Position numbers and translations under genes: made by a program
Part shown: one piece after another, positions 12,916-49,547 of the stretch
Position numbering within the stretch: the first letter of the stretch is position 1
Layout of the letters: each line of letters starts with the position of its first letter
Source of the DNA: a virus
IMG/VR virus record: IMGVR_UViG_3300020183_000008
Location: 32,001 to 96,000 of that record
DNA length: 64,000 nt
Direction: 5' to 3' (one strand)
Notes under the pieces: generated by a model
What the model was told of the DNA's origin: nothing
The model's database searches: none
Seen by the model: only the letters and a program-made list of their open reading frames with translations

Positions 12916-13595
12916 CAGAAAATCCCCTTAAAACCAGAGTCATAGCGTTGTGATAAAGTCCGGATAAATCGTTCTCGCCCAACCTTTTTCAATAAGTCGT
13001 TGGCATCTTTTACCCCATCAGAAAAAACGATAGCTTCCATCGAACCTATGTTCATTCCCTTGGATCGCAATTCGGCGGACATTTTATCTTGCATTATCAT
13101 CCCCCACTTGTCTTTGTCTAGGCAGAACCATACAGTTTTTGCATACCTTTTAAGAAACCGTATGTGACCGGATGAAAGTTTGTTGCCCATCAAACTCAAG
13201 ACATTAGGCTTGAAAAGAGAAAAAGAAACAGCATCGAAGGTACCCTCAACGAGAAAGACCTCTTCTGTTTCCCAGATTGATTCGAGCGAGCACCTATTCA
13301 ACCCAAAAAATTGATATCTAGCGTCAGGCATAAACCACTTGTGGTGCCTTTTTTGTTGAAGACTGCGCAATTCAAAACCAACGGGTTGTAGCAAGTCATC
13401 AAATATCGGAAGCAAGATAGCTGTTTCAATCGACCTAGGGATCCCAAAGTCGTTACAATCCTTAAAATTCTTTTTATAGAGCCCGATTTGAAACGGGTCG
13501 CTGTCCGCTACTGTCAATCCTCGCGATGATATGTAATCGCGAAACAGAGCATCATTTTTATTAGAGTGCTTTTCTAAAAATTTATTGAGAGTCAC
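12915..13595 (-). CDS. dnaG: DNA primase catalytic/TOPRIM core lacking the Zn-binding domain
   Basis: YISSRGL, LLPIFD...VGFELR, VFLVEGTFDAVS, CLDKDKWG (DxD) and KDAND. Confidence 0.85.
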   Translation of the reverse strand: MTLNKFLEKHSNKNDALFRDYISSRGLTVADSDPFQIGLYKKNFKDCNDFGIPRSIETAILLPIFDDLLQPVGFELRSLQQKRHHKWFMPDARYQFFGLNRCSLESIWETEEVFLVEGTFDAVSFSLFKPNVLSLMGNKLSSGHIRFLKRYAKTVWFCLDKDKWGMIMQDKMSAELRSKGMNIGSMEAIVFSDGVKDANDLLKKVGRERFIRTLSQRYDSGFKGIF

Positions 13596-13922: not shown

Positions 13923-14216
13923 GTGTTGGTTTATACTTGTAAAAATAAAGATTGTAAAAAGTACCTGATTAACGGTGATGCACTTTGCAAAGTGATTTCC
14001 GAAAAAGGAGAGGCGTCTCTTGACTTAGAGACAGGTCTCTACACATCCAACGAAAATGAACCTATTTCAGGTCAGGTGCGATGTTTTCACTGTAACAAGC
14101 ACGCCTTGAAAAAAGAAATGTTGTCGCTCGACTGTGAAAAAAGCGAATTGCTGAGGGATCTAGATAACATAGAATCAGAAATTGATAATTTGATGAAGAT
14201 CATGGGGGGTGCATGA
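13923..14216 (+). CDS. Small Zn-ribbon protein
   Basis: CKNKDC ... CFHC; coupled to dnaJ by ATGA overlap. Confidence 0.6.
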   Translation: MLVYTCKNKDCKKYLINGDALCKVISEKGEASLDLETGLYTSNENEPISGQVRCFHCNKHALKKEMLSLDCEKSELLRDLDNIESEIDNLMKIMGGA

Positions 14217-15073
14217 ACCCCTTCGAAATTCTAGGTTTATCCGATGATGTGACACTGGAGCAAATAAAAAAACGCTACAGACAACTGAGTCTGGAACATC
14301 ACCCCGACAGAGGGGGTGACATCGAAAAATTCAGATCAATCACGGATGCTTACTCTTTAATCAACAGTGAGCAAAACTTAAAAAATTACCGTTCTCGAAA
14401 AAATTCTATTTTTTCTTGGGACTCCGATCTTGAATCCTTTTTCGGTGACATGTTCAACGCAAAAAAACCACCTGCTCGCCGCACGATTTACACAGATGTT
14501 TACATTTCTTTCGAAGAATCTTTCACAGGATGCACCAAACATGTTTTTTATCAGGAAGTTAAAACTTGTCGAGCTTGCGGGGGTGTAGGGGCATCATCTT
14601 TTGATCCTCAAGGAAACGTAGTAAAAACATGCAACGATTGTTTAGGAGCCGGGTTTACTAACCAAACTCATCAAGCAGAGTTAAATATACCGCGCAGTGT
14701 CGCGGATGGTCATCAACTTGTAGCCGCTGATGATGTTGTAGCCACAATCCACATCGTTCCTCACGGGGACATGACCCGAAAAGGATTGGATGTGCTATCG
14801 ATGCTAAAGGTTTCTTTAAGAGATGTATTTAATGGAAGCAGGCTGCACCTTCAAACTTTGCATGGTGAAGTCGCATTTGACTTGCCACGGTGTCTCCAAC
14901 CTGACAAGATAATCAGATTAAAGAAAAAGGGATTTTTTGATGTGCGTCGGAACACCTACGGTGACCATTTGTTGACTATAAAACTTGTTATCCCTGAGTT
15001 TTCTGATGAAAATTGTGAAAAGATTGTGAGGTGCTTGGATGAAATCCAAACGAGAGAATCAAAAACTAGCTGA
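14213..15073 (+). CDS. dnaJ: DnaJ-class co-chaperone
   Basis: J-domain with HPD (HHPDRGG), two CxxCxGxG repeats (CRACGGVG, CNDCLGAG) and a C-terminal domain. Confidence 0.92.
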   Translation: MNPFEILGLSDDVTLEQIKKRYRQLSLEHHPDRGGDIEKFRSITDAYSLINSEQNLKNYRSRKNSIFSWDSDLESFFGDMFNAKKPPARRTIYTDVYISFEESFTGCTKHVFYQEVKTCRACGGVGASSFDPQGNVVKTCNDCLGAGFTNQTHQAELNIPRSVADGHQLVAADDVVATIHIVPHGDMTRKGLDVLSMLKVSLRDVFNGSRLHLQTLHGEVAFDLPRCLQPDKIIRLKKKGFFDVRRNTYGDHLLTIKLVIPEFSDENCEKIVRCLDEIQTRESKTS

Positions 15074-15596
15074 AGAGCCTCTTTTCGTACAGTTCCTCAA
15101 TTCTAAAATCGACTACAACGCAGTGGATTCTTTTTTACTGCGGCTTGAATCAATATTCCCAGAACACGAAGACAAGAAGATTGTCAAGGAGCATCGTGAA
15201 TCTTTGAAGGATCATCATTTGGAAGGTTACAAACTTGTCCAAACAAAATTCAAGGATCACATCGATTACATTCTCTCGTACAAAAACTTCGATTCAGGAT
15301 TCTCATCATGGGCTAACTTTTATCTGTCTAGCTTGCGAGAAAACAAAAGCGAGGATAAAAAAGGTAACTTAGAACGCAGGGTAAGAATTGGAGACAAGAA
15401 CGGTGATTGGTTTTCAGGCATCTTGCTCTACAACTTTAGTCTTTTTTGCCGTTACTATGGAACAGATTTGATTCGCAGATGTGACTCGAAAGTGTATTTC
15501 GTTACTCGTTCGAAATGGGATAAATATTGTTCAGATGAATGCAAAAAAGCGAAGTCATGTAAATACTCAACATCTTCTGTTAAGGTAGAAACATGA
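15039..15596 (+). CDS. Hypothetical protein with a C-terminal CGNR-like Zn-finger remnant
   Basis: IRRC...YFV...KYCSDEC. Confidence 0.5.
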   Translation: MKSKRENQKLAEEPLFVQFLNSKIDYNAVDSFLLRLESIFPEHEDKKIVKEHRESLKDHHLEGYKLVQTKFKDHIDYILSYKNFDSGFSSWANFYLSSLRENKSEDKKGNLERRVRIGDKNGDWFSGILLYNFSLFCRYYGTDLIRRCDSKVYFVTRSKWDKYCSDECKKAKSCKYSTSSVKVET

Positions 15597-16696
15597 AAGA
15601 ACTGATGATCTATCTAAAAACAACAGAAACCTGCCAATTAAATTGTAACCACTGTTTTACTAGCGGCTCAAAGGGTCGAAAGATATTCTTCGATCCAGAC
15701 AAGGTGATATCTTTTTTACAAAGATTAAACAAAACTTTCCCGTGCATTGAAAACGGAGGTACGATATCTTTTCACGGAGGTGAGCCTCTAATCGCACCTT
15801 TGGAAGATATCAAAAAAGTTTATCGAACTTGTAAAGATTTATGGAACGATCCAAAAAAACCACAATCCAAAGTCGCTTGGACTTTTCAGTCTAACCTTGT
15901 TTTTCCTTTGACGGATGAAAAGATAGAACTTATCGATGAAGTTACAGAGAAAAGACAATTTGGAACATCATGGGATTCAAAGATCCGTTTCCCAACGCTG
16001 AAAGCAGAACAGTTATGGGAAAAAAATGTTCGCACCCTTGTGGACAGAGGTTACCCTGTCACGGTGATGGTTTCTTTATCAAAACATGCGCTTGAAAAAG
16101 AACCAAAAGAAATCATACAAAAAATGATAGACCTAGGTATCAAATTTATAGCTTTTGAAAGAATAACAAACAACGGCAATGCAAAAATAAATGATGGATT
16201 GACCCCATCGAACAGAGATTTAGATGCCTACATGTTAAAAATGTGGGAACAAACACTCAAGTACAACTACCAAGAAAAAATCCACAACATTCTTTTAGAT
16301 GGTGTGGTCACATCTTTTTTAAACTCCGCTCACACAGGAGAAAGATGTCGAAACTGTGAGCAAAAAATATTTACCTTGAACGCTGATGGAACAATATCAG
16401 GATGTCCAAATTCAGCGGTAGAAAAGCCCTACGCTCAAATCGACTGGAAGATTTACGACATAATCTTTAGCAAAGGTCGGATGAAAGAAATCGCATGTGA
16501 AGCTGTGAGAAACCCGTTGTGCGCAACGTGCGAAGTAAGGGACATCTGTAACGGGGATTGTCATCAGCTCGCGTGGGAAGGTGATATTTGTGCAGCACCT
16601 AAAAGTCTGATGAAAAAAATAAAAACAAATTTACATTCAAACGATTATTATCATCAGTACGATGATTTGCAGAGATTTAAGGAGGCATCTTTATGA
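15593..16696 (+). CDS. Radical SAM/SPASM protein 1
   Basis: CQLNCNHC (CxxxCxxC), FHGGEP, and SPASM cysteines RNC...GCP...CATCEVRDICNGDC...C. Confidence 0.93.
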   Translation: MKELMIYLKTTETCQLNCNHCFTSGSKGRKIFFDPDKVISFLQRLNKTFPCIENGGTISFHGGEPLIAPLEDIKKVYRTCKDLWNDPKKPQSKVAWTFQSNLVFPLTDEKIELIDEVTEKRQFGTSWDSKIRFPTLKAEQLWEKNVRTLVDRGYPVTVMVSLSKHALEKEPKEIIQKMIDLGIKFIAFERITNNGNAKINDGLTPSNRDLDAYMLKMWEQTLKYNYQEKIHNILLDGVVTSFLNSAHTGERCRNCEQKIFTLNADGTISGCPNSAVEKPYAQIDWKIYDIIFSKGRMKEIACEAVRNPLCATCEVRDICNGDCHQLAWEGDICAAPKSLMKKIKTNLHSNDYYHQYDDLQRFKEASL

Positions 16697-17469
16697 GCGA
16701 AGTAATTACAAAAAGAGTGAAAGCTCCTCTGAGTGTTGATGAAATGAAGGATGCTTTTCTTAATAAAGCCGACAGAGACGCAGGTAAAATCAAATATATC
16801 GTTGATTACGTAAACAGCACTATCAAAGGTGATATTCTCCTTCAATATCTATCAAACCTCGAAATTCAAGCGGATTTTGATTTTACAGGAACATCTAAGC
16901 AAGAGAGATTCGACTTTCTTTTGACTTACTTCAAGATGAAAACAATCATCAAGAATAAAGATCTTAATTATGCTGCGAGTGCAGTCGTACTTCGAAGTAA
17001 AGATTTTTCAGGTGAATTCCTGAAGCAAGACTTTCTGACCAATGAAGAGGTCGATGAATTTTATACTTTGCACAAAAATTTAGTGGATAAATGGTCTTTG
17101 ATTGTTGATTCAAGTCTATTGCTATTGATTAGAGTTTCATCACCTCAAACAAGTTTGGATGCATACGAAGATATTTTGGATCCAAATTACTGCGGTGTTA
17201 ATTTTGTCAATCTTTACAATATTTCAGGTTTCTTCAATATTTTTACATCACGCCCTGCAATAAGTGAATTGAAATGGTTCACACACCAGTTCGAAAATTT
17301 TGCTTTTAATAATCAACTCCTATTCAAAATAATCAGCGATTCTGATGAGAGTTTCTTATCATCTTTTAATATGATGCGAGCGACTTTAAATGAGACTTTC
17401 TCAAAAGAATTTTTAGACCAACTAGATCAAGAATTTGATAAATTAGGAAAAGAAAATGCTATTACCTAA
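16693..17469 (+). CDS. Hypothetical accessory protein of the radical SAM locus
   Basis: 258 aa, ATGA-coupled to rSAM1, with GGAGG RBS. Confidence 0.65.
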   Translation: MSEVITKRVKAPLSVDEMKDAFLNKADRDAGKIKYIVDYVNSTIKGDILLQYLSNLEIQADFDFTGTSKQERFDFLLTYFKMKTIIKNKDLNYAASAVVLRSKDFSGEFLKQDFLTNEEVDEFYTLHKNLVDKWSLIVDSSLLLLIRVSSPQTSLDAYEDILDPNYCGVNFVNLYNISGFFNIFTSRPAISELKWFTHQFENFAFNNQLLFKIISDSDESFLSSFNMMRATLNETFSKEFLDQLDQEFDKLGKENAIT

Positions 17470-17635
17470 AAAACAATATGACGATCGCCTTAAAATATGC
17501 GCATCTTGCCCAAATTACATAAAAGTGCTTGGCATTGGTAGGTGTAAAATTTGCGGTTGCATTATGGCTGTTAAGGCTAAAATATCAGCTACAAAATGCC
17601 CTATCGAAAAATGGGACAAAAAGGGAGAGATGTAA
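17456..17635 (+). CDS. Small Cys-rich protein (DUF6171-like), missed by the ORF track
   Basis: Hand translation, 59 aa: MLLPKKQYDDRLKICASCPNYIKVLGIGRCKICGCIMAVKAKISATKCPIEKWDKKGEM. Its TAA overlaps the next ATG (TAATG). Confidence 0.8.
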   Translation: MLLPKKQYDDRLKICASCPNYIKVLGIGRCKICGCIMAVKAKISATKCPIEKWDKKGEM

Positions 17636-18225
17636 TGGCTACAGTAGGTGCAACCATCACAAGAACTACAATGAAAGATGATGGTAATTCTATACCGAAT
17701 GATCGCAACCCTCGCGCAGTGTGGTTTAGAGAGTCGAATGGAGTTCCTGTCGCTAACCCCCAAGGTGCTTGGAACTATTTCACGCCTGCGACCAACACAG
17801 AAAGATGCGCAGTTTATTTAGGTTATAAAGTAGCTACTTATAGCGAGGCTAACTACGGAGCCGCACAATCCCTCATTACAGCATCCACGATTGTAACAAA
17901 TTTCAGAGAATTAGCTAAAAGATGCACACGGTTTCAATATTTACAACATGGCGCTCAAACCAGGTCTTGTACGACTCGTTTTGACATAAATTTCGGTAAC
18001 CGTATCATAGCTAGAGATGTAGAAAATGCTAGTTTGAATTCCCAGATAGATACAATCACAGGTCCGGCGACCGGATCTATTATTTCAGCATCAGCCTTGA
18101 ATGCTTTTGTGACAAACTTGAATAACAAAGCAGCGGAATCTCTAAATATACAAAATTACTGTGACCACACTTTTTGCCACTGCTCATGTCACTCTAGTTG
18201 TCACGCTAGTCGAGCTCGACGATAG
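17635..18225 (+). CDS. Candidate radical SAM substrate: 196-aa protein with C-terminal (C-H-x-S)3-RARR tail
   Basis: Ends CDHTFCHCSCHSSCHASRARR. Start reassigned from 17596 to 17635 (AGGGAG RBS, TAATG coupling). Confidence 0.75.
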   Translation: MATVGATITRTTMKDDGNSIPNDRNPRAVWFRESNGVPVANPQGAWNYFTPATNTERCAVYLGYKVATYSEANYGAAQSLITASTIVTNFRELAKRCTRFQYLQHGAQTRSCTTRFDINFGNRIIARDVENASLNSQIDTITGPATGSIISASALNAFVTNLNNKAAESLNIQNYCDHTFCHCSCHSSCHASRARR

Positions 18226-18231
18226 GAATTT

Positions 18232-19383
18232 GTGATGAGAAAACCTTCAATTCCCACAATAAAAGATGGGTCGAACAACTATTCGGATTTTCTCGAAGCA
18301 AAATATCAGAGTCCAGTTGATGAAAACTATATCAAAAATCTTTTGAAAAAAAAGATCCCTGATGAAGCTGAAATTGAAGTCAGTCTTTTTCAGATCTGTG
18401 GTTTGAAGTGCGCTTTTTGTTGGCAAGACCACGATGATGCAACGGGTTTAAACTCTATTGTTGATAAATTTGATCCCATCTCCGCATTCGTTCAAAAAAA
18501 CCCATCGAAAAAATTCAATGTCCCTTTGATGGGCGGTGAATTGTTCGAAGATTCCAGAACATCTCAGCATTATGAAGACTACTTTACGCTCATAACAAGG
18601 GTAGATGATTTTGCTAGATCTATTGGCAAAAGAATGAAATGGATTCTGGTATCCAACTTATCTTTCAAAAACGCACAACCGGTTTTAGATTTCACAAATC
18701 GCTTAACAGAAGCAAAAAGTGATTGGTGCCTCAGTAGTTCTTTAGACTTCCACGGTAGACCCGTCGCACATTCGATCGAGACTCTCTGGCATAAAAACAT
18801 CATGCTATTCGAAAATAAAATAGCAACAATCAACATGGTTCTAACAGGACCAACCATCCGACGCTTTTTAAATCATGAAACTGATAGATCCTATTTTGAT
18901 CATCTTTATAATTCAGGTTTTCCTCTATCTTTCGACTACTACACACCGGAATCAAATGCAGCGTTGTTGATCCCATCAGATGAAGAATTACTAAATTTCT
19001 TCATCGAAATAGCGGAAAAATACCCGAAAATGGAACCGATGAGTGACTGGTTGAATAATGAACATAACACCATGAGTTGCCTGAGTCTTAACAAACTCAC
19101 TATTTTACCTAACAATCGCATGGTTACTTGTCGACAGTTGGCTTACAAGCCTGAAGATTTCCAAAATAAAATCCACTACGAAAGTAACGCCAACATAATC
19201 GAATCTTTCATCACAAAAAAAGAATGCTTATCCTGCCCTTACTTCAGTAGATGCGGGTTTTCTTGTTTTGTTTTAGATGACCATGTATATTTTTCCAGAA
19301 AACAAAAACTCAAAGAGTGCCTTTACAAAATGATGTTCAGACATATAGAGGCGAAAAATGGATTTAATAATCAAACCAACTGA
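18232..19383 (+). CDS. Radical SAM/SPASM protein 2
   Basis: CGLKCAFC, MGGEL, and SPASM SC...VTC...CLSCPYFSRCGFSC...EC. Confidence 0.92.
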   Translation: MMRKPSIPTIKDGSNNYSDFLEAKYQSPVDENYIKNLLKKKIPDEAEIEVSLFQICGLKCAFCWQDHDDATGLNSIVDKFDPISAFVQKNPSKKFNVPLMGGELFEDSRTSQHYEDYFTLITRVDDFARSIGKRMKWILVSNLSFKNAQPVLDFTNRLTEAKSDWCLSSSLDFHGRPVAHSIETLWHKNIMLFENKIATINMVLTGPTIRRFLNHETDRSYFDHLYNSGFPLSFDYYTPESNAALLIPSDEELLNFFIEIAEKYPKMEPMSDWLNNEHNTMSCLSLNKLTILPNNRMVTCRQLAYKPEDFQNKIHYESNANIIESFITKKECLSCPYFSRCGFSCFVLDDHVYFSRKQKLKECLYKMMFRHIEAKNGFNNQTN

Positions 19384-20413
19384 GGTTTGCAATTTCGCTT
19401 GCACTTTTTGCAGCTCGACAAAAATAGCAGATCGTAAAAATCAAGTTTTAGACTTAAATCTCATTTTTGATTTTCTCAAGAGATTCCCTCAAACCAACAC
19501 AATCATCGTGAACGGAGGGGATCCCTTAGTTATAAATCCAAGTTATTATTGGAAAATAATCGAATACCTTGACCAAAACGACCTTCCTGCAATTATTAGT
19601 TTTACGACAAACCTTTGGGATTTTTACAAAAAACCTGAAAAATGGCTAGATTTGTTTAGAAACTACAGACGGCTACAAGTCGCCACATCATTCAATTACG
19701 GTGATACCCGAAGAATTTCAAAAAACAGGGTTTTCACAGAAGATGATTTTTGGAAAATTAGTGACTTGATGAAAGAACTCGTTGGGTATCGACCTGGTTT
19801 CATTTCAGTCATCACTGAAGAAAACGAGGATACAGCGATTGATAATGTTCGACTCGCCAAAAAAATGGGTGTTGAGTGTAAACTAAATTACGCTATGGCT
19901 TCAGGTGCCCAAAACAAGCCTTTTTTACTTTCCAAAATTTATAAAATTTACCTTCAAATTTACAGGCAAGGTTTAGCACCTTGGGAATTCAATACCAAAC
20001 AAATGACTGCACGTTTGAAAGATGTCCCAACTGTATGCCCACTAAATAGAAATTGCGATTCAGGGATTCGATGCCTTCAACCGAACGGAGCGTACCATTC
20101 TTGCGGAGCGTTCGGAGATGACAATTTCGAAGACAACAAAAAATACGAGATCGATTTCAAGAAAGAAGTTTATGAAAAGCAATTTTTCTTACCGTTGAAA
20201 CAGGACTATACGATTCAAAGAATGAAAGACGAATGCCTCACTTGCCCCATGTTTAAGATATGTAACGGTTGCCATAAGACAATCAAGGACTACAAAAATC
20301 TAAATCTCGTGGAAGAGCATTGCTCTTTGATGAAAGAAATAGCACCTGAGATTATAGAAACTAAACTTTTTGCACCAGATATTGTTAAACAAATAGCTGA
20401 ATTACCATTATGA
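19358..20413 (+). CDS. Radical SAM/SPASM protein 3
   Basis: CNFACTFC, NGGDP, and CPLNRNC...HSC...CLTCPMFKICNGC...HC. Confidence 0.93.
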   Translation: MDLIIKPTEVCNFACTFCSSTKIADRKNQVLDLNLIFDFLKRFPQTNTIIVNGGDPLVINPSYYWKIIEYLDQNDLPAIISFTTNLWDFYKKPEKWLDLFRNYRRLQVATSFNYGDTRRISKNRVFTEDDFWKISDLMKELVGYRPGFISVITEENEDTAIDNVRLAKKMGVECKLNYAMASGAQNKPFLLSKIYKIYLQIYRQGLAPWEFNTKQMTARLKDVPTVCPLNRNCDSGIRCLQPNGAYHSCGAFGDDNFEDNKKYEIDFKKEVYEKQFFLPLKQDYTIQRMKDECLTCPMFKICNGCHKTIKDYKNLNLVEEHCSLMKEIAPEIIETKLFAPDIVKQIAELPL

Positions 20414-21333
20414 ACATATCATTAAACCCTAGCTACCTTTGTAATTTGCGATGTGAATTCTGCTATCTAGGTGAAAAATTAGGTGACCCTAAGCGCATCG
20501 ACCTTCAGGTGTTGGATCAGAGACTCGCGGCTGTTAACGAAATTTCAAAAATCGAACAAATTGACCTGTACGGTGGTGAAATTCTTATACTACCCGATGA
20601 TTACTTGAGACAGCTTATGAATGTGATAAAAAATCACTATCAAGGGTCAATAAATTTAATAACAAATCTTACAAAAATGAAAAGATGGTTTATCGAGAGA
20701 GATGATATTGAATTATCAGTTTCTTTTGATTTCGAAGCTAGATCCGCTTTTCAAAATACTTTAAATAATTTGATGACACTCAAAAAGCCTGTGTCGATAT
20801 TGATGCTCGCATCACCTAAATTGATGAGTTTAGATTTTGAAGAAATGCTAAATATTCTAAATCGAATACCTTGCATCCAATCCGTAGAGATAAAGCCTTA
20901 CTCATCGAATCAATACAACCAACTCGAAACAAAATTCTCTGAATACGAAAGTTTTGTAAAGAAATTTGTTGTTGCTTTCGAAACAGAGAAACTCAAGCCT
21001 TTCTTAACGAACGTGCAGTATATCCAAGATTCCATCAGCCTTGAAAGAAATGCTTTTTCCGACAATCATATCTACATAACACCATCTGGAAAATTCGGTG
21101 TATTAGAATTCGATGATAAAGACCATGAATTTTTCTTAGAATTAGATTCTCTCGATGACTATTACGCTTGGGCAACAAAAGAAAAAATGAAAATCAAAAA
21201 CAATTATTTTTGTTCTGAATGCAAATGGCAAGGGCATTGCCTTACAGAGCACTACAGAGAAGTCAAAGATATTACCCATTCATGCAATGGATTCAAACAC
21301 CTGTTGGAGTGGTATGAAAATGCGGGAACATAA
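20410..21333 (+). CDS. Radical SAM protein 4 with a reduced SPASM-like C-terminus
   Basis: CNLRCEFC, YGGEI and C-terminal CSECKWQGHCLTEH...SCNG. Confidence 0.9.
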   Translation: MNISLNPSYLCNLRCEFCYLGEKLGDPKRIDLQVLDQRLAAVNEISKIEQIDLYGGEILILPDDYLRQLMNVIKNHYQGSINLITNLTKMKRWFIERDDIELSVSFDFEARSAFQNTLNNLMTLKKPVSILMLASPKLMSLDFEEMLNILNRIPCIQSVEIKPYSSNQYNQLETKFSEYESFVKKFVVAFETEKLKPFLTNVQYIQDSISLERNAFSDNHIYITPSGKFGVLEFDDKDHEFFLELDSLDDYYAWATKEKMKIKNNYFCSECKWQGHCLTEHYREVKDITHSCNGFKHLLEWYENAGT

Positions 21334-21853
21334 AATTAGACAAGCGTTGTATCACAAAATAGCAAATCTCGATGACATACTCGATGATGTAGAAAAGCTA
21401 GAGCCTGTCGTATATCGAGAGAATGAGTCCGACAGAGATACAGCCCTCACCATCATCAGATATTTCCGTGAGGAAATCAGAGAACTTATCTACCCAGCTA
21501 AACCGTTCGTAGTGGCTCTCGTTTACGCGTGTCTTTTAGAAAGACACTTTTGTGAGCCTTTTTATGAATCGATATCCGACCCTGATTTGCTACATGGAAA
21601 TGATAAATGGTTCAAACCGTATTGTGATGAAACCAAAGACATTTACGACCATGCAATTTTTCATCTAGGGGCTGAATTGGATTTCATCGTTAGTGATGAA
21701 TTACAATACATACCTTCACAAATCAGGTCGACTATTGAATATTTCAAAAAAGAATTTTTAATTGAAACTAACTACTTACCTGTGCTGCCGAATCCACCTT
21801 CACCTCTGTCCGACTCATCTAATTCAGACACAACGGTGAAATCTAAATCATAG
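21314..21853 (+). CDS. Hypothetical accessory protein of the radical SAM locus
   Basis: Overlaps the rSAM4 end. GGAG at 21306 favours a start at 21314 or 21320 rather than 21287. Its 3' end overlaps dut on the opposite strand. Confidence 0.6.
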   Translation: MKMREHKIRQALYHKIANLDDILDDVEKLEPVVYRENESDRDTALTIIRYFREEIRELIYPAKPFVVALVYACLLERHFCEPFYESISDPDLLHGNDKWFKPYCDETKDIYDHAIFHLGAELDFIVSDELQYIPSQIRSTIEYFKKEFLIETNYLPVLPNPPSPLSDSSNSDTTVKSKS

Positions 21854-22203
21854 TCTTTGACAAGTTTGATCTGACCAATTCTTTCACCGATATAAAATGG
21901 TTGCGCATCTTCTCTCACACGGCGAAATCTGTATTCAATTTCACCCCGATATGAATGGTCGATTACACCCACTGAATTTGCAAGAATCCAGCCAGTTTTT
22001 GAAATAGATGAGCGAGGGAAAGCCAGAAAGCTATAACCCTCAGGTGGTTGAACAGCGATTCCTGTTTTGACTCTTAAAAATTCAGGAGTCTCTTCTACGA
22101 TATCTGCAAAAACATCCCACGCAGCATCATCGCTATGAGCACGTTTAGGAGGCAGAGAACTACCCCGAAGCAATTTTACTTTGACTTGAAATTTTGAAGA
22201 CAT
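21772..22203 (-). CDS. dut: Trimeric dUTPase
   Basis: AAWDV, TGIA, PRSS, NSVGVIDHSYRGEI, RIGQ and RGEGGFGSTG. Confidence 0.96.
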   Translation of the reverse strand: MSSKFQVKVKLLRGSSLPPKRAHSDDAAWDVFADIVEETPEFLRVKTGIAVQPPEGYSFLAFPRSSISKTGWILANSVGVIDHSYRGEIEYRFRRVREDAQPFYIGERIGQIKLVKDYDLDFTVVSELDESDRGEGGFGSTGK

Positions 22204-22221
22204 CTGTAACCCCCTCTGATG

Positions 22222-22230
22222 TGCTAGAAT
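22222..22230 (+). promoter_or_regulatory. Extended -10 promoter, leaderless-type
   Basis: TGcTAGAAT 5 nt upstream of ATG 22236, with no Shine-Dalgarno in between. Confidence 0.5.
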
Positions 22231-22235
22231 AACTT

Positions 22236-22841
22236 ATGCTAAACGATTTTTTCCGTAAAGGCTTTTACACAAATTGTTTAGAAAAAACACATTGTGATGA
22301 AATGCTACACATAGTCCAGTCCATAAATTTTATAGAAAGCCTAGATTACAGAGATGTTGGTTACAAACCACCTCTTATTGCTGAATGGGATGATATCGAT
22401 GATCCCATCGTGTCTGCTCATAACTGCCAAGAAAACTTGAAAAAGTATTGGTTAAAATTCAAAGAATACCTAAAACCTTTAGAAAATATAGCGGGTAGAT
22501 TCGACTCCGGTTCTGTAATTGTCAATAACTTCCCAAAAGGTCACGGTATGAATTGGCATTCAGACACGGTTGACACAGCGTTTGTGCAAATGCTCATATA
22601 TTTGTCAAAAGATTATTTTGACAAAGATGATGGGGGTTATTTGCAAATAGGTGATAGTTTTATCCTACCTAATCATGCTACGATGGTCATTATGAACAAT
22701 ATCTCACCTACAATGTTACATAGGGTAGAGCCGCTCATCACAGAAAAAGAGCGATTGACCGTTGTCTTTCGATACGGGTACATGAACAACACCCTTACAA
22801 AAAAAAGGCTTCTCACCATGAAAGGTGAAATCCGTGATTGA
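22236..22841 (+). CDS. 2OG-Fe(II) oxygenase (prolyl-hydroxylase-like fold)
   Basis: WHSD (HxD), DGGYL, LHRV distal His and RLT 2OG-binding Arg. Confidence 0.85.
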   Translation: MLNDFFRKGFYTNCLEKTHCDEMLHIVQSINFIESLDYRDVGYKPPLIAEWDDIDDPIVSAHNCQENLKKYWLKFKEYLKPLENIAGRFDSGSVIVNNFPKGHGMNWHSDTVDTAFVQMLIYLSKDYFDKDDGGYLQIGDSFILPNHATMVIMNNISPTMLHRVEPLITEKERLTVVFRYGYMNNTLTKKRLLTMKGEIRD

Positions 22842-23439
22842 ATTGGATCTCACAAGTTACTTTCACAAAGGCTACACCGTTACCGATTTAGGATCGGATG
22901 TCGATGGAATCCTAGCTGATATGAGAAATCAAAATTGGGTTGAAAAAGATGACCTTTTGAAACCGGATTGGGACAATCATTCACATCTCAATAAAGCTAC
23001 TGATTATCTTTATGATGCTGTCAGAGATTTCTCTCAGTCCGGCTATTATTCGTGGTTCACGAAAATTTACGGTGGATTTACGCAGCGAACCATCATGGCG
23101 AGAAAATGGACAGGTCAAAGCACGAACTGGTTCAACGAATCTCGTCTAGGGGCATTCAACGCAAATATTCTCTTTCTCGGTAAAGGTGACCCGACCGTAA
23201 GCCTTCAAATCGGACAAGCCGATTGTGATGAAAATGGTCGAATCGAAGGTGTGATTGAGAATGTTTCAACAATTCACCCTAAACACGGAACACTGGTTAC
23301 CTTGTACAACATAAACCCTTGCGTTGTTCGAAGATTTTTGAACGAAGAAAACACAGGGGAATGGTATACTCTGCATTTCTATCTTGGATTTATTGAAAAC
23401 ACTCTGTTGAGAGAGGTTTCAGGTGTTCCACTTATTTAA
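22825..23439 (+). CDS. Degenerate 2OG-Fe(II) oxygenase paralogue
   Basis: Aligns by eye with 48888..49547 (FHKGYT, PDWD, YGGFTQRT, HGTLV..N..P), but HxD is replaced by FNE and the distal His and Arg are lost. Confidence 0.65.
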   Translation: MKSVIELDLTSYFHKGYTVTDLGSDVDGILADMRNQNWVEKDDLLKPDWDNHSHLNKATDYLYDAVRDFSQSGYYSWFTKIYGGFTQRTIMARKWTGQSTNWFNESRLGAFNANILFLGKGDPTVSLQIGQADCDENGRIEGVIENVSTIHPKHGTLVTLYNINPCVVRRFLNEENTGEWYTLHFYLGFIENTLLREVSGVPLI

Positions 23440-24364
23440 AAATACCTATCTCGACATTCAGGGTACATCCAATCCGACCGGTTTTAAGGCACTCTCAACT
23501 GATAATTTCACGATCAAAGATGTAGCTGCTTTAAAAAGTAACGAAAAAATAATTTATTCTGTACCGAAATTTACTTTCACAAAAATTGTGATCGAATACA
23601 TTAAAGAATTGTTCCCTAGTGCATACCCACCGTTGATCATGGAAATTTACGGGATTGTTATGGCGAGAATGACCTATCAGCTCGCCTACCTCACGGATAA
23701 TCAAACAAGAAACACTTATATTGATTGTAATCTTCCATCGGATTCAATAAAAGTTCTGTTGGAAATAACAAAATATAAAGGTTTATTTGAAGGTGATTTC
23801 AAAAGACATGTTGGTATAGAATGGTTACTTTGTGATTATTTCAATGATGGGATTTATTCAGATGAATTTCAAAAAAGATTTCGAGAACTTTTGGTAAAAA
23901 ATATTGTTTACTCGGTTCAAGAGATAAAACATGAAATGTTGTATAAAGTTTTTAATCTTCCGAAAATGTACTTGAACTATAACAACGTAGAAGAATTGTT
24001 TTCAAAAGATATCGGAGTCCAATTCTTATTCGACCCTAGCCTAAACAACGCGACTCACCTTATGACTCGATATAAGATCGAAGACATAGCGGATTTGTTT
24101 CATACATTTACCAAAATGTATAACAAGGGGTACGACAAAGCCAAATACCAAGAAATGACTCTTTTAAGTCTTTTCCTACTCAAAGCGATCTCTTGTTTAA
24201 AATCAGGGAATTGCGATGCGATGATGAAAGAAGAAATACAAAGAGATTTCTCTATTATTTTTGGACATCATCGATTCATGAGAAAAATCAATTGTCTTTT
24301 GATAGATTGGATTTACCAACAAAAAAGGCAAAAAAATAAAGAACTTGAAGTATTAATTCTTTAA
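23423..24364 (+). CDS. Hypothetical protein, last gene of the radical SAM/oxygenase locus
   Basis: 313 aa, GTG start with GAGG RBS, overlapping the upstream gene. Confidence 0.65.
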   Translation: MFHLFKNTYLDIQGTSNPTGFKALSTDNFTIKDVAALKSNEKIIYSVPKFTFTKIVIEYIKELFPSAYPPLIMEIYGIVMARMTYQLAYLTDNQTRNTYIDCNLPSDSIKVLLEITKYKGLFEGDFKRHVGIEWLLCDYFNDGIYSDEFQKRFRELLVKNIVYSVQEIKHEMLYKVFNLPKMYLNYNNVEELFSKDIGVQFLFDPSLNNATHLMTRYKIEDIADLFHTFTKMYNKGYDKAKYQEMTLLSLFLLKAISCLKSGNCDAMMKEEIQRDFSIIFGHHRFMRKINCLLIDWIYQQKRQKNKELEVLIL

Positions 24365-24979
24365 CTTTAATAATTTCGCAGGCACACCCACATAAACACC
24401 TGCTTGTGATAAGTCGGAAACGACTGCGCTTTGTGCACCTGTCGATACATCATCCGCGATCACGATTTCCTCGCGGATCGCCGTCCCTGTACCTAAAGTC
24501 ACATTCTTGCCAACAATTACATTACCTGAAACATGAGTGCCAGGATTAACGGTAACAAAATCACGCAAAACAGAATCATGCCCTACAGTGCAACTGATGT
24601 TTAAAACAACGTAGTCACCTATCGAGACATTTGTCGTTACGATGCAATTTGGAGCAATTATACCACCCACACCCAAAATAGCATCCTGAACTAAAGATTT
24701 GGGGTGGACATAGGTAGGTGCCGGTTTCAAACCAACTGAAAGAGCCTTTTCCACCATAACTCTTTTAGCGTTAGGACTTCCTATTCCGATGATAAATAAA
24801 TGCACACCGTATTCAGTAAAATCCCAATTTTTAACCACAGGATAAACTCTATTATTGAGTTTTAGTTCAGAGGTATCTGTAACATCATCTACAAAAATAA
24901 AGTCGGTGTATTGACCTTGTAAATGCCAATACACCTCTCGCGCTAAACCACCTGCACCTAGTATTACAATCTTGCTCAT
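24353..24979 (-). CDS. NeuD/PglD-type sugar acetyltransferase (hexapeptide repeat)
   Basis: IVILGAGGLARE, IGIGSP, HP, VGHD and left-handed beta-helix repeats, ending VGVPAK. Confidence 0.9.
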   Translation of the reverse strand: MSKIVILGAGGLAREVYWHLQGQYTDFIFVDDVTDTSELKLNNRVYPVVKNWDFTEYGVHLFIIGIGSPNAKRVMVEKALSVGLKPAPTYVHPKSLVQDAILGVGGIIAPNCIVTTNVSIGDYVVLNISCTVGHDSVLRDFVTVNPGTHVSGNVIVGKNVTLGTGTAIREEIVIADDVSTGAQSAVVSDLSQAGVYVGVPAKLLKLKN

Positions 24980-44703: not shown

Positions 44704-45531
44704 TTATTTTAGATATTCGTGCAGATGATCTTGCCAAGGATACAATCTCACACCATTTTGGATACTTTTATCGACATTCAGGACGCTGTTCTTAGGTCTC
44801 TTCGCAGGACGCACGAAGTCTTCTGATGAACAAGGCACCACTTTAACAGGATGATTTTTTAAAATATCTTTAGCAAAGTCGTACCAAGAGCAAAAATTAC
44901 TTGAAGCCACGTGCCATTTCCCTTCGGCACCTTGATCTAATAACCAAGAGACAGCTCGCGATACCATTTTCGTACTCGTAGGTCTTCCAAATTGGTCACT
45001 GACGACCTTAATCTCTTTATTATTCGCAGCAATATTTAACATCGTTTTAACAAAATTCGGACCATTGCGACCAAAAAGCCACTGTACTCGAATCAACAAA
45101 GATTTAGCTGAACAAGATTCAATAGCTGTTTCACCGAAAAGTTTACTTTTCCCGTAATTGTTAATCGGATTTCTTTCATCATCTTCTCGATAGAGTGATG
45201 TGGTATTTCCATCAAAAACATAATCTGTGGAAAAATGAACGATCTTTGAATTAACTTTTTCGCAGGCTGATGCGAGATGATAAACACCTAAACCATTAAC
45301 ATCATAACAAAGCGAGTTAATTTCACACTCATCAACTTTTGTAAAAGCGGCGCAATTCAAAACAATTTCAGGGCGAATGTTGAAAAGAGCGGATTCGACT
45401 TCTTTTTTATTTGTAATATCTAATTGTTTTTTTGAAAGGCTATAAGTTTGATATTTACCATTCAAAACAGGCAGCAAATCGAAAGCCAACATTCCATCTG
45501 CACCTGTGAGTAGTAGTTTAGGCTTACTCAT
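44704..45531 (-). CDS. rmlD: dTDP-4-dehydrorhamnose reductase
   Basis: TGADGML, NCAAFTKVD, STDYVFDG, YGKSK, DQFGRPT and PAKRP. Confidence 0.95.
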   Translation of the reverse strand: MSKPKLLLTGADGMLAFDLLPVLNGKYQTYSLSKKQLDITNKKEVESALFNIRPEIVLNCAAFTKVDECEINSLCYDVNGLGVYHLASACEKVNSKIVHFSTDYVFDGNTTSLYREDDERNPINNYGKSKLFGETAIESCSAKSLLIRVQWLFGRNGPNFVKTMLNIAANNKEIKVVSDQFGRPTSTKMVSRAVSWLLDQGAEGKWHVASSNFCSWYDFAKDILKNHPVKVVPCSSEDFVRPAKRPKNSVLNVDKSIQNGVRLYPWQDHLHEYLK

Positions 45532-46495
45532 TTCTGCCCCAAAAATTTTCGTAGGTTTTTTCTAACCAATTTCGATTATCTTTGTACCAATTCAAGGTTT
45601 TTGATAACGCTTCATCAAGATCTGTACGCGGTGCCCAACCCAATTTTTTTAATTTTGTGCAATCGACTGAATATCGAAAATCATGTCCTTTTCGGTCTTC
45701 GATAAAATTAAGATGCAAATACAAACCAGATAATCTCTGAACAGCGTGCAAAATATCTAAGTTGGATCTCTCGTTATCTGAGCCGATGTTATAGGTTTCG
45801 CCTATTTCACCTTTTTCAGACAATAAAATAATTGCATCAGCTAAATCTTCAACAAAAAGCCATTCGCGAACATTCAACCCATTTCCATAAACAGGGACAG
45901 GTTTGCTGTTCATCATCAAATAAAGTGCTCGGGGTAAAAGTTTTTCAGGGAGCTGCCTCGGACCAAAACAATTCGAAGGGCACACGTTAATTACAGGTAG
46001 CTTGTGCGTTTCCCTAAAAGCATTAGCGAACAATAATTGAGATGCTTTACTCGCTGAATACAAATTCCTAGGTGCGATCGGAGTAGTTTCTGTGAAACAC
46101 CCATCATGAGTTGGGAGATGCCCAAAAATCTCATCGGTAGCAAAGTTGATGACCTTAGGTACTTCGGTCTCCCTACAAGCCTCAAATAGATAAGATGAAC
46201 CTAAAACATTTGTTGTAATAAAATCTTCAAAATTAGATATGGATTTATCCACTGAAGACTCAGCCGCAATGTGTACGACTAATTCATAAGGACCGAAGTT
46301 TGAAAAAACGTGTTCAATGTTGTCTTTTCTTCTAAGGTCAGCCTTAAAAAATTTTACATCTAACCCAGAAATATGCTCTTTGAACCCGCTGTAAGATAGA
46401 GTATCAAAAACATGAACTTCATACCCTTGATCCAAAAATCTTCGCACCACGGTGGAACCAATAAATCCGCAACCACCTGTAATCAAAACTTTCAT
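45524..46495 (-). CDS. rmlB: dTDP-glucose 4,6-dehydratase
   Basis: TGGCGFIG, AAESSVD, TDE, YSASK, PEKLLP, REWLFVED and DRKGHDFRY. Confidence 0.95.
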   Translation of the reverse strand: MKVLITGGCGFIGSTVVRRFLDQGYEVHVFDTLSYSGFKEHISGLDVKFFKADLRRKDNIEHVFSNFGPYELVVHIAAESSVDKSISNFEDFITTNVLGSSYLFEACRETEVPKVINFATDEIFGHLPTHDGCFTETTPIAPRNLYSASKASQLLFANAFRETHKLPVINVCPSNCFGPRQLPEKLLPRALYLMMNSKPVPVYGNGLNVREWLFVEDLADAIILLSEKGEIGETYNIGSDNERSNLDILHAVQRLSGLYLHLNFIEDRKGHDFRYSVDCTKLKKLGWAPRTDLDEALSKTLNWYKDNRNWLEKTYENFWGRNE

Positions 46496-46849
46496 TCAAT
46501 CACCATCCCACACACCATCAGGTCTAATTTGAGCTAAAGCTAGCAAACCGTAAAGGGACTGTTTTGCATTACCTTCTGTCGGTTTCCAATAATCGACATC
46601 AGTATCATCTTTTAGTTGGGCTATAGCTTTTTTTATAACAGGCAAGCTCTCTGCCCCAGTCATCCCATAAATTGCTCTTATCCCTTTTTCTCCAAAAATT
46701 TTGTAAAAAAATGGCGCATAATTATAAGTGATGTTGAGATGAAGCCTGTCATTATTGATAGCATAGGCGCCACCTCTAATTTGATGAGGACTCTCTGAAT
46801 GTAAAACTTCTTTTGTCACAGGGTCTATGAGAGACAAGTCATAGCTCAT
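46496..46849 (-). CDS. Hypothetical phage protein
   Basis: 117 aa (NITYNY...YWKPTEGNA...PDGVW), inserted between rmlA and rmlB. Confidence 0.65.
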   Translation of the reverse strand: MSYDLSLIDPVTKEVLHSESPHQIRGGAYAINNDRLHLNITYNYAPFFYKIFGEKGIRAIYGMTGAESLPVIKKAIAQLKDDTDVDYWKPTEGNAKQSLYGLLALAQIRPDGVWDGD

Positions 46850-46852
46850 AAA

Positions 46853-47761
46853 TTACCTTTGCCATTTTCTGAGAGTTTTTGAGTAGTAGCTCATTTCATG
46901 TAGAACCTGATCTTTGTTATTTCCGCTTTCTACACAATTTTGCCACTTCTCTATTGAACTAAGAGGAATTGAAAGACCATTATCGATAGAAAACAACTTC
47001 AATCGAGGTGGAGGGTTGTTTTTGATAAAATTAGCCGCTTCTAACAACGATTCTGGAGAACCCATGTCCGTCCAATACCCATGAACAGTTGTAGATTCGA
47101 GGCGACCTTGCTCAAGATAGGCTTGAATAATATCTGTTACTTCTAGCTCACCTCGACCTGAAGGCTTGATCTTCTCAATAATATCAAAAACATCAGAGTC
47201 AAAAATATAAGCACCGACGACTGCGAGATTTGACTCAGGTTGTTTTGGTTTTTCGATGACTTTTAAAACTTTTCCAGATTCGTCCACAGTCGCAACTCCG
47301 AACGCTTTTGGGTCATCCACAGGTTTTAAAAGAATCTTTCCACCACCTCGATAGGTAGAGACGAACTCTGCTAAAGAATCTTCAAAAAAGTTGTCGGCAA
47401 GAATAACGCAAACAGGACTATTACCAACGAAAGGTCGGGCACAGCGTAAAGCATCTGCGATACCACCCTCACGATGTTGATACCCGAAATTGACGCTGTT
47501 CAATCCAAATTCTTTACCATTACCAATATACTCAATGACTTTCCCTGAATTTCTTGATCCTACAACGGCAACGACATCTTTGATCCCAGCTTCAACTAAA
47601 TTAGATAGAGGATATTCAATCATGGCGCGATCAAAAACATAAATCATGTGTTTGTTTACAACACGGTGAGTGTAATACGACATTCGTGTACCTAATCCAC
47701 CTGCGAGAATAACACCTTTCATTTTTGACCCCCTAAAATTTCGGTATAAGTCTGTTCCCAA
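46853..47761 (-). CDS. rmlA: Glucose-1-phosphate thymidylyltransferase
   Basis: GVILAGGLGTR, NKH, GIADAL, EKP, SGRGELEVTD and WTDMG. The true start is probably the internal MKGVIL near 47722. Confidence 0.93.
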   Translation of the reverse strand: MGTDLYRNFRGSKMKGVILAGGLGTRMSYYTHRVVNKHMIYVFDRAMIEYPLSNLVEAGIKDVVAVVGSRNSGKVIEYIGNGKEFGLNSVNFGYQHREGGIADALRCARPFVGNSPVCVILADNFFEDSLAEFVSTYRGGGKILLKPVDDPKAFGVATVDESGKVLKVIEKPKQPESNLAVVGAYIFDSDVFDIIEKIKPSGRGELEVTDIIQAYLEQGRLESTTVHGYWTDMGSPESLLEAANFIKNNPPPRLKLFSIDNGLSIPLSSIEKWQNCVESGNNKDQVLHEMSYYSKTLRKWQR

Positions 47762-48887: not shown

Positions 48888-49547
48888 TCAGAACAGGACG
48901 CTTAACTTGTTGCCTCTTATATTTTCAACATAACCGCATCGGGAAATCAAAGTATAACGGGTCTTTTCGACCACCAAAGGACTTACTGAATGACAAAACG
49001 TAGGAACCACATTACAGATTGATACAAGCACTCCGTGTTCAGCTACAATCTCTTGCACTCTATCAATACTATCTTTGATTCCCCACCACGTTTTGTCTAG
49101 TTTCCACGAGCCACACAAAAGATTACCACCGTACTCAGAAATCCACTTTTCCGAAGTCAAAAATAAACAATTCGTGACGTGAAGACCCTCATGTACATCA
49201 TTGTGAAAGGGAAGGTGTACACCTTGTTTATGCTGGTGAAGTAGCGTGGTACGCTGCGAAAAGTCACCGTATAACAAACGCCAATAATCAAAATAAGGCT
49301 GTGAAAGTATTGAATCCCATATAGAAGTAATCTCAGATGGGGGTTTGTTATCCGATGTTTTTTTGCTGAAAGCACTGTCCCAGTCAGGTATTTGAGGATT
49401 AGACTTCTTAGTCTTCGACTCTTCTCTGAAATTTTGGCTTTCTGCAATTTTTAGAAATTCATCTGCAAAAGACTTTTTTAAACGGGTTGCAGTCCAACCT
49501 TTTGAAAAGAAATGGTCTGCATCAAATAATTCGTCTTGCAACATCAC
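48888..49547 (-). CDS. 2OG-Fe(II) oxygenase
   Basis: PFHND (HxD), YGGNL, FCHSV and RYT. Confidence 0.85.
   Translation of the reverse strand: MMLQDELFDADHFFSKGWTATRLKKSFADEFLKIAESQNFREESKTKKSNPQIPDWDSAFSKKTSDNKPPSEITSIWDSILSQPYFDYWRLLYGDFSQRTTLLHQHKQGVHLPFHNDVHEGLHVTNCLFLTSEKWISEYGGNLLCGSWKLDKTWWGIKDSIDRVQEIVAEHGVLVSICNVVPTFCHSVSPLVVEKTRYTLISRCGYVENIRGNKLSVLF

What the first reader, a model, noticed from the sequence alone, without database searches (positions are those of the whole stretch)
15593..24364. Phage-encoded four-radical-SAM protein modification system
Seen: a co-oriented, largely overlapping gene run. Order: rSAM1, a 258-aa unknown, a 59-aa Cys-rich mini-protein, a 196-aa protein with a Cys/His repeat tail, rSAM2, rSAM3, rSAM4, an unknown, (dut on the other strand), a 2OG oxygenase, a degenerate oxygenase and a 313-aa unknown. 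All four enzymes have CxxxCxxC and SPASM-type cysteines. Established: SPASM radical SAM enzymes mostly act on peptides or proteins (anaerobic sulfatase maturases, ranthipeptide, sactipeptide and triceptide maturases, the HxsB/HxsC His-Xaa-Ser system). Inference: this is a phage RiPP-like pathway that installs crosslinks, and perhaps hydroxylations, on the central protein. No transporter or protease was recognised, so the product is more likely a modified virion or effector protein than a secreted antibiotic.
Basis: partly seen in the sequence, partly recalled or inferred. Interest (0 to 1): 0.92.

Follow-up and report, generated by a model that had tools for sequence, protein, structure and literature searches.

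The report
Radical-SAM kit maturing a virion protein
A large lake phage carries a widespread but unstudied gene set in which four iron-sulfur radical enzymes and two oxygenase-type proteins most likely modify the unchanging Cys-His tail of one fast-evolving virus-particle protein; this would be a new way of finishing a phage particle.

Summary
Observation largely confirmed. Four SPASM-type radical SAM genes surround a 196-aa protein ending (CHxx)3-RARR. rSAM4 lacks the first auxiliary-cluster cysteines, and the 59-aa gene is lineage-specific.

The cassette recurs in over 100 phage loci, in cultured jumbo phages (Atu_ph07, Phosso, RSF1/RSL2, DT01) and in 11 of 301 genomes of the Bacteriovorax phylum. 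Enzyme and tailed protein are tightly linked: 49/49 rSAM1 loci carry it.

The Atu_ph07 homologue gp170 was found in purified virions, peaking in the top gel band; the enzymes were not found. The tailed protein is the most divergent of 23 neighbouring genes (53% to a close relative), yet its last 16 residues are identical. Position 4 of the repeat is never Gly (0/732), as beta-carbon chemistry needs. One lineage lost the RxRR end together with rSAM2, rSAM4 and a helper gene.

Best reading: post-translational modification of a virion (probably fibre-associated) protein's tail. No chemistry is shown. It works like the bacterial HXS system but is not a member. I found no paper on it. This scan already reported the same cassette many times on other DNA.

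The parts
15593..16696 (+). rSAM1, radical SAM/SPASM enzyme with 8 C-terminal Cys (two fully ligated Aux clusters predicted). Core gene, kept in the short-tail lineage.
16693..17469 (+). u258, core helper of unknown function (PHROG 20767), normally right after the tailed protein. Confident AF2 model with no clear fold match; weak likeness to the C-terminal half of SPASM enzymes.
17456..17635 (+). 59-aa Cys-rich DUF6171 mini-protein. Accessory: seen in the cassette only in this lineage.
17635..18225 (+). Tailed protein (196 aa), the presumed substrate. Folded, variable body (three helices plus beta-hairpin); homologue of the Atu_ph07 virion protein gp170.
18175..18225 (+). Conserved C-terminal motif, residues 181-196: three Cys-His-x-Ser/Asn repeats followed by RARR.
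18232..19383 (+). rSAM2, SPASM enzyme with 7 C-terminal Cys (open Aux I site predicted, as in CteB). Present with RxRR-ended tails, not found with short tails.
19358..20413 (+). rSAM3, the most conserved enzyme; 8 C-terminal Cys. Core gene, kept in the short-tail lineage.
20410..21333 (+). rSAM4, radical SAM enzyme with only Aux II-type Cys plus invariant His281. Goes with RxRR-ended tails.
21287..21853 (+). u188 (likely start 21314 or 21320; PHROG 20737), helper of unknown function that goes with rSAM2 and rSAM4.
21772..22203 (-). dUTPase inserted in the cluster. Not part of the system.
22236..22841 (+). 2OG-Fe(II) oxygenase with intact HxD...H. Common, variable accessory.
22825..23439 (+). 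2OG-fold paralogue lacking HxD, probably non-catalytic.
23423..24364 (+). u313, core helper of unknown function; its family is in 63 of the loci searched (window included) and in 6 bacterial loci.

Best explanation
The cluster is a dedicated post-translational modification kit for the C-terminal tail of the 196-aa protein, which then becomes part of the virion, most likely on or beside a host-binding fibre. SHOWN: gene linkage, motif conservation, enzyme class, and virion presence of one homologue. INFERRED, step 1: rSAM1 and rSAM3, with u258 and u313, act on the three C-H-x-S/N repeats. They would abstract H from the beta-carbon of the Ser/Asn and link it to His two residues back (triceptide-like cyclophane) and/or to a Cys sulfur (thioether). 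INFERRED, step 2: rSAM2, rSAM4 and u188 form a second module that needs or modifies the RxRR end. INFERRED, step 3: the 2OG oxygenases add optional hydroxylations. The rigidified tail probably locks the protein into a stable oligomer or onto a fibre, or forms a metal or receptor-binding element, while the variable body faces the host.
For: Linkage: 49/49 rSAM1-selected loci have the tailed protein, and 72/76 tail-selected loci have rSAM1 nearby; 3 of 5 contigs checked for the exceptions carry it further away. Tail: C/H invariant; body almost Cys-free family-wide (0.16%); position 3 is Gly 241/732 times but position 4 never, being S, N or A in 99%. Enzymes: best matches are DarE, anSME, PapB, GrrM, DynA, ChlB and CteB. 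Virion: gp170 (31.89 kDa, matching) had 8 peptides and 35% coverage in Atu_ph07 particles. It peaked in band 1, whereas other 29-35 kDa proteins peak in bands 6-13 apart from one single-peptide hit. None of gp164-169 or gp171-172 was detected (PMC6102473 Table S5). Fold homology to gp170: Foldseek E 1.1e-3. The tailed protein is the most divergent of 23 genes against a close relative (53% vs 64-91%), with an identical last 16 aa. Modularity: RxRR tails have rSAM2 81/81, rSAM4 78/81 and u188 72/81; short tails 0/9 for all three. Fibre context: a Peptidase_G2 chaperone-type fibre domain lies within the locus for 63 of 90 tails with full flanks. In bacteria, 10 of 11 cassette genomes but only 5 of the other 290 carry a related gene, and 7 of 11 have a prepilin/S74 fibre alongside.
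Against: No modification has been observed in any member. Virion evidence is one phage, PEG-purified. The band-1 shift could be plain disulfides or an SDS-resistant oligomer, since no reductant is listed in the loading buffer. Absence of Gly at position 4 also fits a side-chain or metal-site role, and the sequences are related. The RxRR co-loss is a single lineage, seen in contigs only 22-41% complete. No G2 or S74 fibre was found in this phage (35% complete), and no G2-type domain in its closest complete relative, so the fibre partner is not universal. One bacterial cassette had no detectable tailed protein.
Confidence: 0.7

Rival explanations
1. The tail is a metal- or cofactor-binding site (Fe, Fe-S, Zn or Cu through the Cys/His pairs). 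The enzymes build or insert a metallocofactor on it rather than crosslinking residues, for example an iron-bearing receptor-binding tip.
For: Three invariant Cys-His pairs on a Cys-free body. rSAM2 has a predicted open Aux I site. Bacterial cassettes lie beside a small protein with a twin-arginine-like N-terminus (read by eye).
Against: The closest enzymes are peptide crosslinkers or anSME, not cofactor maturases. No scaffold or sulfur-transfer gene is recognised in the cassette.
Confidence: 0.12
2. The tail is modified and then cut off, or the protein is ejected into the cell. The active product is a RiPP-like peptide or an HXS-like effector (superinfection exclusion, anti-defence, DNA binding), and the virion detection is incidental or only delivery.
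For: HxsA has rSAM-matured HxS repeats with basic residues and binds DNA (PMC13128918). The tail ends in RxRR. The cassette also sits in bacterial chromosomes.
Against: No protease, transporter or signal peptide is recognised. The body is well folded (pLDDT 87) and diversifying, unlike a leader. RxRR is absent in 80 of 242 tails. The cassette is repeatedly next to fibre genes.
Confidence: 0.1
3. The enzymes make a small molecule or modified nucleotide (DNA hypermodification, viperin-like product, auxiliary metabolism), and the tailed protein is only a neighbour.
For: dUTPase lies inside this cluster and DHFR genes inside that of RSF1. There are weak viperin, MoaA and QueE profile hits. Phage rSAM enzymes are known in thymidine hypermodification (PMC8989533, listed; detail from my own knowledge).
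Against: Those hits cover only the N-terminal CxxxCxxC region and are far below cut-off. dut is not conserved in the cassette. Near-perfect linkage to the tail and joint loss of RxRR with three genes are hard to explain this way.
Confidence: 0.05

Closest known systems
HXS antiphage system (HxsA/B/C/D; TIGR03976-03979; Li et al. 2026, PMC13128918)
   Same: Radical SAM enzymes with extra Fe-S clusters plus a small helper mature a folded protein that carries His-x-Ser repeats (+8 Da on SHRSS).
   Different: HxsA has a signal peptide, N-proximal HxS repeats without Cys and a peptidoglycan-binding domain; it is periplasmic and defends bacteria. Here the repeats are C-terminal C-H-x-S/N, there are four or more unrelated enzymes, no HxsD is found, and the substrate homologue is in phage particles.
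Triceptide cyclophane synthases (HaaB, HtkB, YhhB with YhhC, FxsB, GrrM; PMC11499958) and DynA/DarE
   Same: SPASM enzymes linking His (position 1) to the beta-carbon of position 3 in repeated three-residue motifs, sometimes with a 2OG oxygenase. The H-x-S/N motif here fits.
   Different: Known substrates are short leader-core peptides with one maturase. All family scores here are below 50 bits against cut-offs of 310-650. No RRE, protease or exporter was recognised.
Ranthipeptide/sactipeptide maturases CteB and PapB; anaerobic sulfatase maturase anSME
   Same: Best PDB and NCBIfam matches. rSAM2 has the CteB-like 7-Cys pattern; rSAM1 and rSAM3 have anSME-like 8 Cys.
   Different: Far below cut-offs; different substrate motif; no sulfatase in the cluster.
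Phage and Bdellovibrio fibres with intramolecular chaperones (Peptidase_S74 and G2; MAT fibres, PMC10769870)
   Same: These are the genes that most often flank the cassette in phages and in the Bacteriovorax phylum.
   Different: No radical-SAM modification is described for them in the papers found. The bacterial neighbours are about 350-430 aa with a prepilin-type leader, unlike the ~1,000-aa MATs.

Membership tests
Radical SAM superfamily | CxxxCxxC motif and GGE-type motif on a radical SAM core | tested here: met
   All four enzymes. PF04055 above cut-off for rSAM3 and rSAM4, below for rSAM1, no hit for rSAM2. All four hit PHROG 1802 at E<=1e-32.
SPASM subclass | Seven or eight C-terminal Cys for two auxiliary clusters | tested here: met
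   Met by Cys pattern for rSAM1 (8), rSAM2 (7) and rSAM3 (8); TIGR04085 scores 26.8, 16.4 and 19.7 against a cut-off of 27.
SPASM subclass | Aux I cysteines in rSAM4 | tested here: not met
   Only C268, C271, C277, C292 and H281 are conserved.
HXS system | HxsB/HxsC/HxsD/HxsA family scores above cut-off | tested here: not met
   HxsC 24.6 and 19.1 bits against 267.9; no HxsA, HxsB or HxsD hit listed.
HXS system | Substrate with signal peptide and peptidoglycan-binding domain | tested here: not met
   No Pfam or NCBIfam hit; the sequence has no hydrophobic leader.
HXS system | His-x-Ser repeats in the substrate | tested here: met
   Three H-x-S/N units, but C-terminal and each preceded by Cys.
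HXS system | Blocks phage DNA entry | not testable with these tools
   Needs experiment.
Triceptides | Aromatic-X2-X3 motif with a beta-carbon at X3 | tested here: met
   X3 is Gly 0/732, X2 is Gly 241/732.
Triceptides | Maturase of a known cyclophane-synthase family | tested here: not met
   GrrM 36, YhhB 32, XyeB 24 and FxsB 19 bits against cut-offs of 310-450.
Triceptides | Aromatic-to-beta-carbon crosslink (-2 Da) | not testable with these tools
   Needs MS/NMR.
Ranthipeptide/sactipeptide maturases | Family score (PapB, CXXX-repeat maturase) | tested here: not met
   PapB 37 against 340; TIGR04115 26 against 350.
Classical RiPP cluster | RRE, protease and exporter | tested here: inconclusive
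   None recognised by Pfam or NCBIfam. The u258 fold search was unclear; u188 and u313 were not folded.
Virion protein | Found in purified particles | tested here: met
   Met for the homologue Atu_ph07 gp170 only; not testable for this uncultured phage.
2OG-Fe(II) oxygenase | HxD...H iron triad | tested here: met
   Present in 22236-22841; absent in 22825-23439.

The most novel reading that the evidence does not exclude
Large phages and predatory bacteria share an undescribed, modular radical-SAM assembly line. One module acts on (CHxS)3 and another on RxRR. Together they chemically rebuild the tail of a fibre-associated adhesion protein, making radical crosslinking a step of virion morphogenesis and of host or prey recognition, probably with new His/Cys/Arg chemistry.
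Probability: 0.4. Interest if true: 0.93.

Novelty: new variant of a known kind. Interest (0 to 1): 0.8.

Why it matters
I found no description of radical-SAM maturation of a phage particle protein; papers on phages that carry the cassette only list the genes (PMC11898562). The kit offers four distinct, uncharacterised SPASM-type enzymes with an obvious 16-residue substrate. It is present in cultured phages (Atu_ph07, Phosso, RSL2, RSF1, S13, DT01), so one proteomics run could test it. It links phage fibres to fibre loci of predatory bacteria, and it may clarify the unresolved chemistry of His-x-Ser repeats in the HXS system.

Tried and rejected
tblastn of the tailed protein against cultured phages found nothing because the body is too divergent; homologues were found through synteny.

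PDB fold searches gave no clear match for the tailed protein (best Z 4.5) or for u258 (best Z 4.6). The idea that u258 is a cluster-less SPASM remnant rests on three weak hits (ChlB, anSME, CteB; Z 3.3-4.0). Profile comparison did not support it, so it stays a lead.

ESM Atlas gave nothing usable for u258 or u188. The complex prediction for u258 plus the tailed protein gave no answer.

No RNA holder was listed. The promoter/terminator scan was at chance level.

No S74 or G2 domain was found in this contig, no G2-type domain in the complete relative, and the 451-aa neighbour does not match the G2-type domain. The one-clade tree test did not finish, so no donor or direction is claimed.

Rejected: 'the last 16 residues never change' (RxRR is missing in 80 of 242 tails), 'virus-only', and the 59-aa gene as a precursor peptide (lineage-specific). 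I could not obtain RSL2/RSF1 virion proteomes. About nine literature searches found no paper on this cassette's function; the library lacks most subscription journals.
Full report
OBSERVATION. The ORFs are as described: rSAM1 15593-16696, u258 16693-17469, a 59-aa gene 17456-17635, the 196-aa tailed protein 17635-18225, rSAM2 18232-19383, rSAM3 19358-20413, rSAM4 20410-21333, u188 21287-21853, dut on the minus strand, a 2OG oxygenase 22236-22841, a 2OG-fold paralogue 22825-23439 and u313 23423-24364. The window lies in a 155-kb linear phage record, about 35% complete, with terminase and portal genes. The stretch is held by lake-water metagenomes.

ENZYMES. All four hit PHROG 1802. None reaches any NCBIfam family cut-off. 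The top hits for rSAM1 and rSAM3 are peptide or protein maturases (DarE, anSME, PapB, GrrM, DynA); those for rSAM2 and rSAM4 are weaker. PDB profile hits are anSME, ChlB, 8VPO and CteB. Conserved cysteines differ between the four. rSAM1 and rSAM3 have eight, fitting two fully ligated auxiliary clusters as in anSME. rSAM2 has seven, the pattern that leaves an open Aux I site in CteB (PMC6231123). rSAM4 has four plus an invariant His and lacks the Aux I cysteines. These are four separate orthologous groups, which suggests four different jobs (inference).

DISTRIBUTION. rSAM1 and rSAM3 each find the same 15 records of cultured jumbo phages: Atu_ph07, Phosso, the RSL2/RSF1 group and pPa_SNUABM_DT01. 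The four I opened have the same core with a protein ending (CHxS)3-RxRR. Eighty IMG/VR loci show the order rSAM1, tail, u258, rSAM2/3/4, u188 with variable 2OG oxygenases. Further scans had 366 rSAM1 matches. Linkage holds in both directions: 49/49 rSAM1-selected loci have the tailed protein and 72/76 tail-selected loci have rSAM1; rSAM1 lies further off in 3 of 5 contigs checked for the exceptions. u258, u188 and u313 are core genes. A cupin usually precedes rSAM1 (68/81) but is missing here. The 59-aa DUF6171 gene is confined to this lineage's cassettes.

BACTERIA. The cassette is also chromosomal. It is in a Bacteriovorax genome and in 11 of 301 genomes of its phylum (Bdellovibrionota, by my knowledge), among housekeeping genes. 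Ten of the 11 have the tailed protein. In rSAM1+rSAM3 trees, this phage and a complete 356-kb relative fall on the same side of a supported branch as 9 of the 10 bacterial cassettes in the tree (FastTree 1.0; SH-aLRT 95). The one-clade test did not finish, so no direction of transfer is claimed.

THE TAILED PROTEIN. AlphaFold gives a confident fold (pLDDT 87): three long helices plus a beta-hairpin, with a low-confidence, exposed tail. It has no PDB match but matches viral models including Atu_ph07 gp170 (E 1.1e-3). Cys and His of the three repeats are invariant, while the body is nearly Cys-free across the family. In 242 distinct tails, position 3 is Gly 241 of 732 times; position 4 is never Gly and is S, N or A in 99%. 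Triceptide synthases link His to the beta-carbon of exactly this position (PMC11499958), and a Cys-to-beta-carbon thioether would need the same carbon. This fits but does not prove such chemistry. Against a close relative, this gene is the most divergent of 23 (53% vs 64-91%), yet the last 16 residues are identical. That pattern suggests a host-facing body with an enzyme-read tail.

VIRION EVIDENCE. The Atu_ph07 particle proteome (PMC6102473, Table S5) lists gp170 at 31.89 kDa, the mass I compute for the tailed homologue, with 8 peptides and 35% coverage. None of the cassette's enzymes or helpers is listed. gp170 peaks in the top gel band, while other 29-35 kDa proteins peak in bands 6-13 (one single-peptide exception). 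The buffer lists no reductant, so disulfides, an SDS-resistant oligomer or enzymatic crosslinks could each explain this. It is one phage and a PEG preparation.

MODULARITY. Tails ending in RxRR come with rSAM2 (81/81), rSAM4 (78/81) and u188 (72/81). A freshwater T4-like lineage whose tail stops right after the third repeat has none of the three (0/9; not found in five whole contigs). It keeps rSAM1, rSAM3, u258 and u313 and has a B12-binding radical SAM gene instead. This is one evolutionary event in incomplete contigs, but it assigns rSAM1/3 to the repeats and rSAM2/4 with u188 to the RxRR end as a testable hypothesis.

FIBRE CONTEXT. A Peptidase_G2 chaperone-type domain ends a fibre-like protein near the cassette for 63 of 90 tails with full flanks, including the Atu_ph07 virion protein gp176. 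In bacteria a related gene (profile E 2.7e-4) occurs in 10 of 11 cassette genomes but in only 5 of the other 290 (nine model rows came from cassette genomes). A prepilin-leader S74 fibre sits alongside in 7 of 11. However, neither domain was found in this contig, and no G2-type domain in the complete relative. The partner in this lineage is therefore unknown.

MECHANISM AND COMPARISON. The most likely reading (0.7) is radical-SAM modification of the C-terminal tail of a virion protein, as laid out under Best explanation. Rivals are a metallocofactor site (0.12), a released peptide or HXS-like effector (0.10), and small-molecule or nucleotide chemistry (0.05). It works like the HXS system (PMC13128918) and like His-triceptide pathways, but it fails their family tests. 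No paper found describes the cassette's function.

EARLIER SCAN NOTES. This scan reported the same cassette many times on other DNA with the same reading. One note says part of that claim fell on checking; I could not see which part. I had the reading and the gp170 lead before opening those notes. The Bdellovibrio lead came from them and was retested here. My data contradict the notes' 'tail never changes' and 'virus-only' wordings.

VERDICT. Real, conserved and uncharacterised. It is a new variant of radical-SAM protein maturation with a probable new role in virion building. Interest 0.8.

Noticed in passing
G000:C1:1-19780, minus strand (12-32 kb left of the window start): Collagen-like ORF of at least 6,593 aa (about 2,040 Gly-x-x triplets) that runs off the contig end; a probable giant fibre.
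   Followed up: partly
window 48888-49547 (-): A third 2OG-fold paralogue of the cassette oxygenases, far from the cluster and lacking HxD.
   Followed up: partly
window 14213-15596 (+): DnaJ and a 185-aa gene run directly into rSAM1 and are kept in relatives L005 and L109; possibly a chaperone co-opted in this lineage, where the usual cupin is missing.
   Followed up: partly
window 24353-24979 (-), 44704-47761 (-); G000 19.9-28 kb: PglD-like acetyltransferase, plus genes that look by eye like nucleotide-sugar enzymes and glycosyltransferases: a possible virion or fibre glycosylation set.
   Followed up: no
window 17635-18225: This lineage's tailed proteins carry extra Cys (C56, C98, C115, C176 and a CHC first repeat), unlike most of the family; possible disulfides in the variable body.
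   Followed up: partly
L085, L099-L108: Bacterial cassettes sit beside a prepilin/S74 fibre, a G2-like ~200-aa gene ending HWVKVK and a ~125-aa protein with a twin-arginine-like N-terminus: an undescribed adhesion locus of predatory bacteria.
   Followed up: partly
L016, L045, L114-L116: Short-tail lineage with a 625-aa B12-binding radical SAM gene in place of rSAM2, rSAM4 and u188.
   Followed up: partly
L060, L067, L183, L195: Marine T4-like versions with up to nine radical SAM genes; in L183 and L195 two tailed proteins lie directly behind a fibre of more than 3,200 aa.
   Followed up: partly
BFVD A0A8S5USJ7, A0A8S5USJ8, A0A8S5USV2 (Myoviridae sp. ctijX18): 500-660-aa phage proteins that seem to contain the tailed protein's fold.
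   Followed up: no
L001 13080-13994: Atu_ph07 rSAM4 (gp164) is annotated with a late start that omits its N-terminal part; a longer ORF begins near 13080.
   Followed up: no
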